Source: Escherichia coli (lineage in GTDB: Bacteria; Pseudomonadota; Gammaproteobacteria; Enterobacterales; Enterobacteriaceae). From it: a stretch of 64,000 bases of DNA. Where the stretch lies: assembly GCF_013315695.1 (NCBI RefSeq), contig NZ_CP054353.1; one strand, 5' to 3'. The position numbers are program-made. The first letter of the stretch is position 1; every line of letters starts with the position of its first letter. Shown here one piece after another: positions 24,001-27,000 of this stretch.

Positions 24001-27000
24001 TACCGTATGCGTTCCGGCATTAAAAGATGTTCCTACAGACACCGCAGATTCACCGTTGAACGTTCCCGCTCCCGCTGACACCATCATCACGTCACCGGTT
24101 TTCACCTGTGGTTGTGAGGCGATAGCGATGGCAGATGCAGTTCCCGCATTGGCTTCTTTACGATTGTCCTCAACTTCGTTTTTCAGAGAATCGAAATGGT
24201 TATTGAGCGTGTTAATTTGTTGGCTGTTATCTGCGACCCGTTTTTGCGTGTTGGTTAACTGTTGCTGCGTTTGGGTTACGTCTTGTGACAGGCTGTCAAT
24301 TTGTTCATGTGCCTGGACAGACTTCTGCGCCAGACTTTGCATTTGTTTATCGTATTGAGCCCTTTCTTTTTGCTGTTGTGCTGCCACATCGGTTGTCAGT
24401 GCATTCATTTTCTGCCCTTGTTCCGTGGTAGTGCGCTGATTAGCCTCATTTTGAGCCGCCAGCCTGGCATTAATCATCTCCTGATAATGCGCGGTATTTT
24501 GCGTATCTCCAGTCGCGGCGAGCGTTTTTTGTGTGGCTACGATCTGCGCCTGTTGCTCTGTAATTTGCGTTTGCTGGGCATCAGTTACCGCAGACTGTCG
24601 GGCGTTGATCATGCTCTGATAACGGGCGGTTGTCTGTACATCACCTGTAGCGGCAACGGTTTTTTGTCCTGCGTCAGGATCTGTCTGGACAGGGGGAGTC
24701 TGAGTGGTATCAGGTGTTTCAGAAGGGATGTAGTGATGTTCAGTCAAATAGGTATACGCAGCGGGGCTGTTGTCTGTGCGTTCTAAAAAGCGGGTAATCT
24801 TCTGCTCAATCTCCGATTGCGACATGCCGGAGTTAATGGCTGAAAGCTCTGTTGCCGCCGCTTCAATGGTATCACCAGCTAAAACAACAGGGCTGGATAT
24901 TGCTGAAATTATGAGTGCCAGTAAAGCTACGTTTACAGTTTTCATTCATTTTCTCTTGTTCAAAATAAGTCGCATTAATGTTTCTATAAGAAACAAATAA
25001 TATTGTTTTAAGAAATAAACTGCGTTGCAATTTGATCGAAATCTACGCCGCCATTTGTGTGATGTAAAGCGCATTTTTGTCTTGTGTAAGCGTAAACACC
25101 ACCAATAAGAAACAAAAATAGTTTCTTATATAAATAAAAAAGGAAATTATTTCGTGCTCTTTCAATGTAAAAAAGAGTAAAGACTTGTTTTGATAAGCGA
25201 AATAAATTCTGTTTCTGGACTAAACGTGAAGCGGTTCCTGATGTGTGCTAAAATGCGTTTCTTTGATAAATCTCAATTTTTAAGAGGTTTACGCCAGGCA
25301 GGAAATTTAAATGAATGAATTTGAGAAGATTTTTAATGAAATGAATCTGGACCGGGCATTGCTACCGATCCTTTTTCGTTCGAACCGGTCGACAGTGTGG
25401 AAGTATTTAAGCGGCGATAGTACGGCTCCTGCCTCTGCCATGTCGCTGATCATGCTGTTGCAGTTGATCCAGAAACGAAACCCCGATCTGTTAGCCGAAT
25501 GGTTAACGCTTTCTGATTTCACCATTCCGCCAGAAGTTTACCTGGACCAACCTGATTACTGGAAAGGGTGGGTGTATACCCAACACAAGGTCAATAAAAA
25601 CGTCCTGGAATATCTAAAAAAACACTATCCGGATGAAGACCAAAAAAGTATGGGTAAAGGCCGGGAAGAGTAATTTTGCCTCTACTCGGCTATATGCCGG
25701 ATGCGGCGCAAGCGCCTTATCTGGCCTACGATTCGGGCATATTTTGTAGGCATGATAAGACGCGTCAGCGTCGCGTCAGGCGATGACCGCACGGATGATC
25801 AGCGTTATCCCTTCTATCGCAATGACTTCAACATGCGTACCTGCACCGAGATCCTCGCTGGCGCTGACAGGCCATGAACTGTCGCCGACGCGCATATGAC
25901 CGCGCCCGTTGACCAGTGGAGATTCCAGCACAAAACGTCGGCCAATCAGCTGCTGCCCGCGCTGGTTTAAATGACTGTCGCTGTGCTTTTGTTCGCGCAC
26001 CCGCCGCGACAACCATTTCCACCACAGCCAGGCGGCGAGCAGCGTCAGGATGGCAAACATCACCCCTTGCCACTCCCAACCCAGCGGCACCAGCCAGACC
26101 ACCAGGCCGGTAATCACCGCTGCCACGCCGCTCCACAACAAATAACCATTTCCGCCCAGCATCTCGGCTGCCAGCAGCAACCCGCCGAGACTGAGCCAGA
26201 AAATATGTGGATGAACGACCATTAACTCCATCATGGCTGAGTCCGTTTGTTGGCGCTGTCTTTCACCAGCTCGGCAATCCCGGCAATCGACCCCATCAGG
26301 CTGCTGGCCTCTAATGGCATCATCACCACTTTGCTGTTACTGGACGAACCGATCTGCTGTAACGCTTCGGTGTATTTCTGTGCGACGAAGTAGTTCACCG
26401 CCTGAATATCACCGGAGGCGATGGCTTCAGACACCATTTTGGTGGCGCGGGCTTCTGCTTCAGCGGAACGTTCACGCGCTTCGGCCTGTAAGAATGCCGA
26501 CTGACGTTCACCTTCCGCTTTCAGGATTTGCGACTGTTTTTCACCTTCGGCTTTGAGGATTTCCGCCTGACGGATCCCTTCCGCTTCGAGGATGTAAGCG
26601 CGTTTGGTACGTTCCGCTTTCATCTGCGCGTTCATTGAAGAGATAAGCTCTGCCGGTGGGCGCACGTCACGAATTTCAATACGGGTGACTTTAATCCCCC
26701 ACGGGTTAGTGGCTTCATCGACAATACGCAGCAGGCGTGAGTTGATGCTGTCGCGCTGAGAGAGCATTTCGTCAAGTTCCATTGAACCCAACACGGTACG
26801 GATGTTAGTCATGGTCAGGTTGATGATCGCCAGCTCCAGATTGCTGACTTCATAGGCAGCGCGTGGCGCGTCAATCACCTGAATAAAACAGACTGCGTCG
26901 ATGGTAACGTTGGCGTTATCTTTCGAGATAACTTCCTGGGAAGGGATATCGAGCACTTGCTCCATCATATTGATCTTGCGACCAATGCGATCCATAAACG

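What the first reader, a model, noticed from the sequence alone, without database searches (positions are those of the whole stretch)
24946..25310. AT-rich divergent control region with a perfect palindrome and a repeated half-site
Seen: the 365-bp interval between the TAA-like gene (minus) and the 120-aa ORF (plus) is strongly AT-rich. It contains a perfect 9-bp inverted repeat ATAAGAAAC-N7-GTTTCTTAT at 25105-25129, with the half-site TAAGAAACAAA repeated at 24987-24997. Inference: operator sites for a dimeric regulator, possibly the adjacent 120-aa product, controlling divergent expression of the adhesin module. The AT-richness also suggests H-NS silencing.
Basis: partly seen in the sequence, partly recalled or inferred. 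Interest (0 to 1): 0.4.

Follow-up and report, generated by a model that had tools for sequence, protein, structure and literature searches.

The report
Operator array controlling an adhesin gene
The AT-rich gap between an E. coli surface-adhesin gene and a small neighbouring gene is a conserved control region, carrying two back-to-back promoters and six repeated 15-bp binding sites that the neighbour, a previously unrecognised helix-turn-helix protein, most likely binds.

Summary
The interval is 31% GC, the lowest in the window. The 9-bp palindrome lies at 25105-25129 and the repeated half-site at 24987-24997.

Taken alone the palindrome is weak: 7% of shuffles give an equal one. The repeated half-site belongs to a second, perfect palindrome, GTTTCTATAAGAAAC (24980-24994).

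Ten orthologous loci from seven or more enterobacterial genera show the unit to be GTTTC-N5-GAAAC. It occurs 14 times at one mismatch or fewer, against 0.14 in shuffles, and is often arrayed every 22 bp.

Six sites sit around two conserved divergent promoters.

The DNA motif changes where the recognition helix changes. A dedicated regulator is therefore the best reading, but it is unproven. H-NS silencing is plausible but untested.

The parts
23929..24945 (-). [not shown]
   Evidence: Pfam YadA_anchor covers residues 279-338 at E 2.6e-11. RefSeq names it 'YadA family autotransporter adhesin'. The published gmrA deletion primers flank exactly this CDS. ECs0548 is listed as 'Saa-like protein' in PMC2323221.
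24946..25310 (.). 365-bp divergent control region, 31% GC.
   Evidence: It is present once per genome in 1413 of 5426 complete E. coli genomes. Orthologous intergenic regions of 231-408 bp (~290 bp in L019 with the corrected start; eight of the ten are 356-379 bp) occur in the other genera.
24980..24994 (.). Site D1: perfect 15-bp palindrome GTTTC-TATAA-GAAAC.
   Evidence: The arms are kept and the centre is flipped (TTATA) in the most divergent E. coli allele.
25002..25016 (.). Site D2: degenerate unit ATTGT-TTTAA-GAAAT, 22 bp from D1.
   Evidence: Position and 22-bp register follow. It is better preserved in other alleles and genera: GCTTCtataaGAATT in L005, GTTTCtataaGAAAT in L010. This is a weak call in this window.
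25040..25068 (-). Predicted sigma-70 promoter of the adhesin gene: -35 TTTACA (25068-25063), 17-bp spacer, -10 TAGATT (25045-25040). The transcription start is inferred near 25033.
   Evidence: Consensus scan. This is the most conserved block of the cross-genus alignment, with TTTACA/TTTACT and TAnnTT kept at 17-bp spacing. The start site is not mapped.
25099..25113 (.). Site C1: CCACC-AATAA-GAAAC. The right arm is perfect and the left arm has decayed in E. coli. Centre at about -73 of the adhesin promoter.
   Evidence: Orthologs carry a good palindrome at the aligned position: GTTTCtattgGAAAC in L014, ATTTCcaatgGAAAC in L008, ATTTCttataGAAAC in L010.
25105..25129 (.).
   Evidence: The arms are invariant while the 7-bp spacer varies among E. 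coli alleles. GAAAC-N7-GTTTC at one mismatch or fewer gives 9 hits in 4 loci, against 0.22 in shuffles.
25121..25135 (.). Site C2: GTTTC-TTATA-TAAAT (2 mismatches), 22 bp from C1. Centre at about -95 of the adhesin promoter.
25211..25225 (.). Site B: GTTTC-TGGAC-TAAAC (1 mismatch). Centre at about -43 of the predicted z0640 promoter.
   Evidence: GTTTCT is kept at about -100 from the ATG in 5 of the 8 orthologs of alignment A3 and as a variant (GTTTCC, GTTTTT, GTTTAT) in the other 3.
25246..25254 (+). Predicted extended -10 promoter of the 120-aa gene, TGcTAAAAT. The transcription start is inferred near 25261.
   Evidence: TGnTAnnAT is present in all 8 aligned orthologs and in L016, L019 and L022. 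The consensus scanner did not report it, because there is no -35 hexamer. The start site is not mapped.
25257..25271 (.). Site A: GTTTC-TTTGA-TAAAT (2 mismatches), spanning the inferred +1 of the z0640 promoter.
   Evidence: The GTTTC pentamer directly follows the -10 element in 7 of the 8 aligned orthologs, and GTTTCTTTGA in 6.
25311..25673 (+). [not shown]
   Evidence: - AlphaFold2 with an 18-sequence alignment: pLDDT 90.6, pTM 0.78.
- Foldseek: HigA2, probability 0.99.
- Pfam on family members: Xre-like-HTH 7e-5, MqsA_antitoxin 3e-5, HTH_3 3.8e-4.
- The published z0640 deletion primer abuts its start codon.

Best explanation
The interval is the shared control region of a small, horizontally mobile adhesin module, O-island 29 of E. 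coli O157:H7. The module is: lipoprotein gene, YadA-type adhesin gene, control region, HTH gene.

The region carries two divergent sigma-70 promoters and six copies of a 15-bp operator, GTTTC-N5-GAAAC. Its half-site centres are 10 bp apart.

Two operator pairs are spaced 22 bp apart, which is two helical turns and puts them on the same face of the DNA. They bracket the adhesin promoter:
- C1/C2 lie at about -73 and -95.
- D2/D1 lie at about +25 and +47, in the leader.

Two single sites lie at the HTH gene's own promoter:
- B lies at about -43.
- A lies over +1.

Shown:
- the motif, its enrichment, its phasing and its conservation;
- the conservation of both promoters;
- the HTH fold;
- the gene linkage.

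Inferred:
- the transcription start sites;
- the sign of regulation and any looping.
For: 1. Motif enrichment. GTTTC-N5-GAAAC at one mismatch or fewer occurs 14 times in 9 of 10 non-redundant orthologous intergenic regions. The shuffle mean is 0.14 and the maximum 1. No other spacer from 0 to 12 stands out, apart from N7 in the opposite polarity, which is what 22-bp tandem units produce.

2. Phasing. Same-strand GTTTC distances peak sharply at 22 bp (7 cases), then 44 and 46 bp.

3. Local specificity. Each ortholog has 4-8 GTTTC/GAAAC pentamers, at recurring positions of about -54, -100, -190 to -215 and -300 to -335 from the ATG. In the 64-kb window, 2 of the 3 matches at one mismatch or fewer lie here.

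4. Conservation pattern. Arms are conserved while spacers vary, both among E. coli alleles and across genera.

5. Promoters. Both promoters are conserved, and the sites overlap or flank them.

6. Fold. The 120-aa protein has an XRE HTH fold.

7. Linkage. It sits divergently next to a TAA homolog in eleven loci. These span Escherichia, Pseudocitrobacter, Symbiopectobacterium, Lelliottia, Hafnia and relatives, down to 33% identity and in different chromosomal contexts.

8. Co-variation.
- Proteins with recognition helix NRST.. go with GTTTC.
- Hafnia PRNTIFNYL goes with AAGAAC-N7-GTTCTT and GTTC repeats.
- Hafnia HRSTSHKWL, at the same chromosomal locus, goes with GCAGAAA three times.
- Pectobacterium PRATLWKYL goes with TCTTCATTGG repeated 22 bp apart.
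A host-wide regulator would not predict two different motifs at one locus within one genus.
Against: - There is no binding, footprint, reporter or start-site data.
- The E. coli protein itself gets only E = 0.12 against Pfam (MqsA HTH). It has no NCBIfam or PHROG family and no significant PDB sequence match.
- Several E. coli sites are degenerate. C1 and D2 have 4 mismatches each.
- The co-variation argument rests on three divergent lineages inspected by eye.
- Deleting z0640 gave no motility phenotype in the one published study (PMC5826968). Adhesin expression was not measured there.
- Site positions relative to +1 depend on predicted promoters.
Confidence: 0.55

Rival explanations
1. The GTTTC-N5-GAAAC sites are real operators, but a conserved enterobacterial host regulator binds them. 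The 120-aa protein then has another role, for example an adhesin-specific accessory function or an antitoxin-like function.
For: All hosts are Enterobacterales, so a shared host factor is possible. Other conserved boxes in the region resemble host-factor sites: an FNR-like TTGAT-N4-ATCAA and a CpxR-like GTAAA-N5-GTAAA. This shows that host inputs are likely. The z0640 deletion had no reported phenotype.
Against: I could recall no E. coli regulator with this consensus and spacing. That is from memory, not a database test. The motif is not enriched elsewhere in the window. The motif differs between two module variants at the same Hafnia locus, and changes with the recognition helix. The gene pair and control region move together between chromosomal contexts.
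Confidence: 0.2
2. The region is mainly an H-NS-silenced, AT-rich island promoter. The palindrome and repeats are by-products of AT-rich composition.
For: The region is 31% GC, the lowest in the window. The locus is an accessory island present in 26% of complete E. coli genomes. TTGATAAATC (25263-25272) matches 8 of 10 positions of the high-affinity H-NS motif TCGATAAATT; that motif is recalled from the literature. A palindrome of this size arises in 7% of shuffles.
Against: Composition does not explain a specific 15-bp dyad found 14 times against 0.14 expected (shuffles preserve dinucleotides). It does not explain the 22-bp phasing, or arm conservation with variable spacers across genera. H-NS binding could still coexist as an additional layer.
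Confidence: 0.12
3. The palindromes act as RNA hairpins in the leaders, for stability, attenuation or translation control, rather than as DNA sites.
For: D1 and D2 lie in the predicted 5' leader of the adhesin mRNA, and A lies in the leader of z0640 (positions inferred).
Against: Arms are conserved in sequence rather than co-varying. The stems would be 5-6 A/U-rich pairs. No Rfam family matches inside the interval at E of 1 or less.
Confidence: 0.04

Closest known systems
Restriction-modification controller (C) proteins and their C-boxes (e.g. C.AhdI, C.Esp1396I)
   Different: There is no R-M system here. The controlled gene is a divergent adhesin gene. The operator sequence and the 15-bp unit with 22-bp phasing differ. 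The protein has an extra ~50-residue C-terminal helical domain. Sequence similarity is insignificant.
Anti-CRISPR-associated autorepressors Aca1/Aca2
   Different: There is no anti-CRISPR gene or phage context here. The arrangement is divergent rather than co-operonic. The Aca2 alignment has a large rmsd outside the HTH (7.2 A).
HTH antitoxins of the XRE type (HigA2, MqsA, MbcA/ParS Xre-like HTH)
   Same: These give the best Foldseek hit (HigA2, probability 0.99) and the only Pfam and PDB sequence hints, MqsA and Xre-like-HTH. They bind palindromes in their own promoters.
   Different: There is no toxin partner gene next to z0640. Its constant partner is a TAA gene across a ~360-bp gap.
Lambda cI / OR1-OR2-OR3 and GalR OE/OI looping
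   Same: Tandem dyad operators lie about two turns apart between divergent promoters. Operator pairs on both sides of a promoter (about -73/-95 and +25/+47) resemble the gal OE/OI bracket. This comparison draws on established knowledge of those systems.
   Different: There is no evidence here for cooperativity or looping. The protein is much smaller than cI or GalR, and its oligomerisation domain is unknown.
[not shown]
   Same: It is the same locus. The gene left of this interval is gmrA, so the interval is the gmrA upstream region. gmrA expression was reported to respond to temperature, pH, osmolarity and host cells.

Membership tests
XRE / lambda-repressor-like HTH DNA-binding proteins (for the 120-aa product) | Five-helix lambda-repressor-like fold with a helix-turn-helix | tested here: met
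   [not shown]
XRE / lambda-repressor-like HTH DNA-binding proteins (for the 120-aa product) | Significant sequence match to an HTH profile (Pfam HTH_3, HTH_26, Xre-like-HTH, MqsA) | tested here: inconclusive
   The E. coli protein itself reaches only MqsA_antitoxin at E 0.12. Among 18 family members, one each reaches E of 0.001 or less for Xre-like-HTH (7e-5), MqsA (3e-5), HTH_3 (3.8e-4) and HTH_26 (4.5e-4). The PDB profile search gives E 0.64.
XRE / lambda-repressor-like HTH DNA-binding proteins (for the 120-aa product) | Sequence-specific DNA binding as a dimer | not testable with these tools
   This needs EMSA or footprinting, and a measurement of oligomeric state.
Operator array of a dimeric HTH regulator (for the DNA element) | Dyad symmetry with half-site centres about one helical turn apart | tested here: met
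   GTTTC-N5-GAAAC has its centres 10 bp apart. One copy is perfect (24980-24994) and others have 1-2 mismatches.
Operator array of a dimeric HTH regulator (for the DNA element) | Enrichment and conservation beyond composition, with arms conserved and spacer free | tested here: met
   14 hits against 0.14 in dinucleotide-preserving shuffles across 10 loci. Arms are invariant and spacers variable in alignments A1 and A3.
Operator array of a dimeric HTH regulator (for the DNA element) | Helically phased multiple sites | tested here: met
   There are seven same-strand distances of 22 bp, and further ones at 44 and 46 bp.
Operator array of a dimeric HTH regulator (for the DNA element) | Overlap with mapped promoter elements | tested here: inconclusive
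   The sites overlap or flank promoters that are predicted and conserved. No transcription start site has been mapped.
Operator array of a dimeric HTH regulator (for the DNA element) | Occupancy by the cognate protein | not testable with these tools
   This needs a footprint or ChIP.
H-NS-silenced horizontally acquired DNA | AT-rich relative to the genome, and an accessory locus | tested here: met
   31% GC against 54%. The region is present in 1413 of 5426 E. coli genomes. It is O-island 29.
H-NS-silenced horizontally acquired DNA | H-NS occupancy and derepression in an hns mutant | not testable with these tools
   No data were found in the library searches run.
Trimeric autotransporter adhesins (for the left-hand gene) | C-terminal YadA-like membrane anchor | tested here: met
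   PF03895 matches at E 2.6e-11 over the full 60-position model, residues 279-338. Orthologs carry PF03895 or align over the anchor.
Trimeric autotransporter adhesins (for the left-hand gene) | N-terminal signal peptide, extended stalk, surface display as a trimer | not tested
   The N-terminus MKTVNVALLALIISAISSPVVLAG looks like a signal peptide, read from the sequence. Coiled-coil-type spurious hits cover residues 100-270. No signal-peptide or coiled-coil predictor was run.

The most novel reading that the evidence does not exclude

Probability: 0.25. Interest if true: 0.6.

Novelty: new member of a known kind. Interest (0 to 1): 0.45.

Why it matters
The locus is O-island 29 of EHEC O157:H7. 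It also occurs in neonatal-meningitis, uropathogenic, avian-pathogenic and enteroaggregative E. coli. How it is regulated has not been described.

This analysis yields a concrete set of things to test:
- a defined operator motif;
- six mapped sites;
- two predicted promoters;
- a candidate dedicated regulator.

The regulator family has no Pfam or NCBIfam model. It is linked to trimeric autotransporter adhesins across Enterobacterales, so the finding could define a small new regulator family.

The analysis also flags a probable mis-assignment in the literature. The protein published as the transcription factor GmrA has the sequence of an outer-membrane adhesin, while the HTH-fold protein in the island is its unstudied neighbour.

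Tried and rejected
- The first AlphaFold2 run, with a shallow 12-sequence alignment, gave pLDDT 56 and was unusable. It was superseded.
- NCBIfam and PHROGs gave nothing significant for the 120-aa protein. PDB sequence and profile searches were not significant.
- Rfam found no match inside the interval. It found only sub-threshold REP/naRNA4-like hits downstream of the 120-aa gene.
- The consensus promoter scanner found only the adhesin promoter. The z0640 promoter was found by conservation instead.
- Dam/GATC phase variation was considered and dropped. The only GATC (25034-25037) is absent from the O157, 042 and N17 alleles.
- A sigma-28 promoter over TAAAGACT-N11-GCGAAATA (25178-25204) was considered and dropped. 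The -10-like part is not conserved.
- An RcsAB-box reading of TAAGAA was considered and dropped. TAAG is not conserved across genera, whereas GAAAC is, and the spacing does not fit.
- A CRP-like reading of TGTGA-N6-GCGCA (25057-25072) was considered. It overlaps the -35 and spacer of the adhesin promoter and has a weak right half. It was left unresolved.
- Literature searches for an XRE regulator paired with a trimeric autotransporter found nothing.
- The genome-contig scan returned only 4 loci. Wider sampling came from exact-protein look-ups.
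Full report
**Where this is.** The window is E. coli chromosome. The interval 24946-25310 lies in a small accessory island between cueR (22065-22472) and ybbJ (25776-26234).
- To its left, on the minus strand, is a 338-aa gene that RefSeq calls a YadA-family autotransporter adhesin. Its last 60 residues match the whole Pfam YadA_anchor model at E 2.6e-11.
- To its right is a 120-aa 'hypothetical protein' (25311-25673).
- The intergenic sequence occurs once, chromosomally, in 1413 of 5426 complete E. coli genomes at 88-100% identity. 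These include O157:H7 and EAEC 042.
- This is O-island 29 of O157:H7 EDL933.
- The Sakai ortholog ECs0548 is listed elsewhere as a 'Saa-like protein' adhesin.

**Checking the observation.**
- The interval is 31.0% GC against 54.3% for the window, the lowest of all 365-bp windows sampled.
- The 9-bp perfect inverted repeat is not remarkable on its own. 7% of dinucleotide-preserving shuffles contain one at least as long with a loop of 12 or less.
- The repetition is what stands out. GTTTCT/AGAAAC occurs six times here (shuffle mean 0.32; 0 of 2000 shuffles reach six).
- Only 1.6% of shuffles have any comparably complex hexamer at six copies.
- These are 6 of the 26 copies in the 64-kb window.

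**Related loci.** The 120-aa protein belongs to a small family.
- It has 21 close relatives in the 90%-identity clusters and 23 representatives with E of 1e-3 or less among 1.84 billion proteins.
- All named members come from Enterobacterales: Escherichia, Pseudocitrobacter, Symbiopectobacterium, Lelliottia, Hafnia, Pectobacterium, Kosakonia, Kluyvera and Leclercia.
- I retrieved the genomic context for members down to 33% identity.
- In eleven loci the gene lies divergently from a homolog of the adhesin across a 231-408-bp gap (window, L007, L008, L010, L012, L014, L015, L016, L017, L019, L022); the gap is 356-379 bp in eight of the ten relatives.
- Ten of these partners keep the C-terminal anchor. 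The Symbiopectobacterium copy is truncated.
- The surrounding genes differ between loci. The pair plus its intergenic region therefore moves as a unit.
- One locus (L020) has no adhesin gene called upstream. Two contigs were too short to judge.

**What is conserved in the intergenic DNA.** An eight-sequence cross-genus alignment shows two promoter-like blocks.
- The first is a minus-strand promoter: -35 TTTACA (25068-25063), 17-bp spacer, -10 TAGATT (25045-25040). The scanner also found it. It is kept as TTTAC(A/T)-17-TAnnTT in the orthologs, and it predicts an adhesin transcript starting near 25033.
- The second is a plus-strand extended -10, TGcTAAAAT (25246-25254). It is kept as TGnTAnnAT in all eight sequences and in three more distant loci. 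It predicts a start near 25261.
- Neither start site has been mapped.
- Every ortholog also carries 4-8 GTTTC/GAAAC pentamers at recurring positions.

**Anchoring on the pentamer** revealed a G followed by A-rich bases 5 bp downstream. I therefore tested both polarities with every spacer from 0 to 12.
- GTTTC-N5-GAAAC at one mismatch or fewer occurs 14 times in 9 of 10 loci (shuffle mean 0.14, maximum 1).
- The only other outlier is GAAAC-N7-GTTTC, with 9 hits in 4 loci against 0.22.
- These two are the same signal. Units of 15 bp repeated every 22 bp put a GAAAC arm 7 bp before the next GTTTC arm.
- Same-strand pentamer distances peak at 22 bp seven times, and then at 44 and 46 bp.

**Sites in this window**.
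- D1, 24980-24994, is perfect.
- D2, 25002-25016, is degenerate.
- C1, 25099-25113, has a perfect right arm and a decayed left arm.
- C2, 25121-25135, has 2 mismatches.
- B, 25211-25225, has 1 mismatch.
- A, 25257-25271, has 2 mismatches.
- At the position of C1, other genera carry a full palindrome, for example GTTTCTATTGGAAAC in L014.

**The neighbour as regulator.** Direct sequence searches of the E. coli protein are uninformative. The Pfam MqsA HTH hit is E 0.12, and nothing appears in NCBIfam, PHROGs or PDB sequences.
- With an 18-sequence alignment that includes distant members, AlphaFold2 gives pLDDT 90.6 and pTM 0.78.
- Foldseek ranks the HigA2 antitoxin HTH first, at probability 0.99 and rmsd 2.5 A over 64 columns.
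- Individual family members reach Pfam Xre-like-HTH, MqsA, HTH_3 and HTH_26 at 1e-4 to 1e-5.
- One source already labels a Hafnia member an XRE-family regulator.
- The fold is therefore established. DNA binding is inferred from it.

**Linking protein to motif.** Three arguments favour the module's own HTH protein over a host factor.
- First, the gene pair and the control region are inherited together across contexts.
- Second, the motif is local. Only one other match at one mismatch or fewer exists in the 64-kb window, and exact matches in the fetched loci lie only in the intergenic regions.
- Third, the motif changes with the recognition helix. NRST-type helices go with GTTTC. Hafnia PRNTIFNYL goes with AAGAAC-N7-GTTCTT plus GTTC repeats.
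- Also under the third argument: Hafnia HRSTSHKWL, at the same chromosomal locus, goes with GCAGAAA three times. Pectobacterium PRATLWKYL goes with TCTTCATTGG repeated at 22 bp.
- This third argument is qualitative and rests on few lineages.

**Likely mechanism (inferred).**
- Relative to the predicted starts, A spans +1 and B is centred near -43 of the z0640 promoter. That promoter has no -35 hexamer. This geometry is known from lambda PRM and R-M controller proteins, where one site activates and one represses.
- C1/C2 are centred near -73 and -95, and D2/D1 near +25 and +47, of the adhesin promoter.
- That arrangement would allow upstream activation, a leader roadblock, or a loop closing over the promoter.
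- I cannot tell activation from repression.

**H-NS.** The composition and the accessory status of the island fit H-NS targets. One 10-mer is close to the reported high-affinity motif. I found no occupancy data. H-NS may well add a layer of control, but it does not explain the specific, phased, conserved dyads.

**Comparison and novelty.** The logic is that of small XRE-type autoregulators: C-proteins, Aca proteins, HTH antitoxins and cI. What is new is the membership.
- The family has no profile in Pfam or NCBIfam.
- It is tied to trimeric autotransporter adhesins.
- It has a defined 15-bp operator in 22-bp arrays.
- No description was found in the searchable library.
- I rate it a new member of a known kind, of moderate interest.

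- The primers show that this is the 338-aa YadA-anchor protein.
- Its central coiled coil gives spurious weak hits, such as TMF_DNA_bd at E 0.065 and SMC. These may be the source of that prediction, though this is my inference.
- The EMSA and ChIP data reported there are not something I can evaluate.

Noticed in passing
[not shown]
   Followed up: partly
window 25263-25276: An FNR-like box, TTGATAAATCTCAA (9 of 10 positions of TTGAT-N4-ATCAA), is centred near +9.5 of the predicted z0640 promoter and overlaps site A. It is kept at the same place in 7 other loci: 9 of 10 in L005, L007, L008, L015 and L016, and 10 of 10 in L010 (TTGATACACATCAA) and L019 (TTGATAATTATCAA). It is absent in L012, L014 and L017.
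   Followed up: partly
window 25167-25181: GTAAAAAAGAGTAAA is an exact match to the CpxR consensus GTAAA-N5-GTAAA, and it is the only one in the 64-kb window (expected 0.13). It is kept as GTAAr-N5-GTAAr in five of eight orthologs and with one mismatch in a sixth, with a variable spacer. It lies about 87 bp upstream of the predicted z0640 start.
   Followed up: partly
window 22818-23585: An IS1 insertion of about 768 bp, with a short target duplication, interrupts the lipoprotein gene downstream of the adhesin (the ortholog of z0638). That gene is 140 aa when intact in strain AF3 and 123 aa with an IS-derived tail here.
   Followed up: yes
window 375-22068: A giant 6119-aa ORF is followed by type I secretion genes. 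The ABC permease/ATPase is split into 221-aa and 498-aa ORFs (18738-19403 and 19400-20896) and is annotated 'frameshifted' in a near-identical genome. The HlyD-family gene overlaps the cueR start codon by 4 bases.
   Followed up: no
L003 (EAEC 042), L004, L005 versus the window: The adhesin gene is length-polymorphic among E. coli alleles that share the control region. It is 338 aa here and in O157, and 422 aa in strain 2018-05-2CC. In 042 and N17 only a 349-aa C-terminal part is annotated, with 0.7-1.5 kb left unannotated upstream, so it may be a longer or disrupted gene.
   Followed up: no
L019 and L022 (Hafnia): Two different variants of the module occupy the same Hafnia locus, between a riboflavin-synthase-like gene and an MFS transporter. 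Their HTH proteins are 44% and 33% identical to the E. coli one. The adhesins are 583 and 450 aa, and the repeat motifs differ.
   Followed up: partly
[not shown]
   Followed up: no
window 25659-25784: REP-type palindromic elements lie between the 120-aa gene and ybbJ. They give sub-threshold Rfam hits to naRNA4 (32 bits against a gathering score of 59.5).
   Followed up: no
window 25057-25072: The spacer of the predicted adhesin promoter contains a conserved TGTGA next to the -35 hexamer (TGTGATGTAAAGCGCA). This resembles a CRP half-site. It is kept in 7 of 8 orthologs. Its meaning is unresolved.
   Followed up: no
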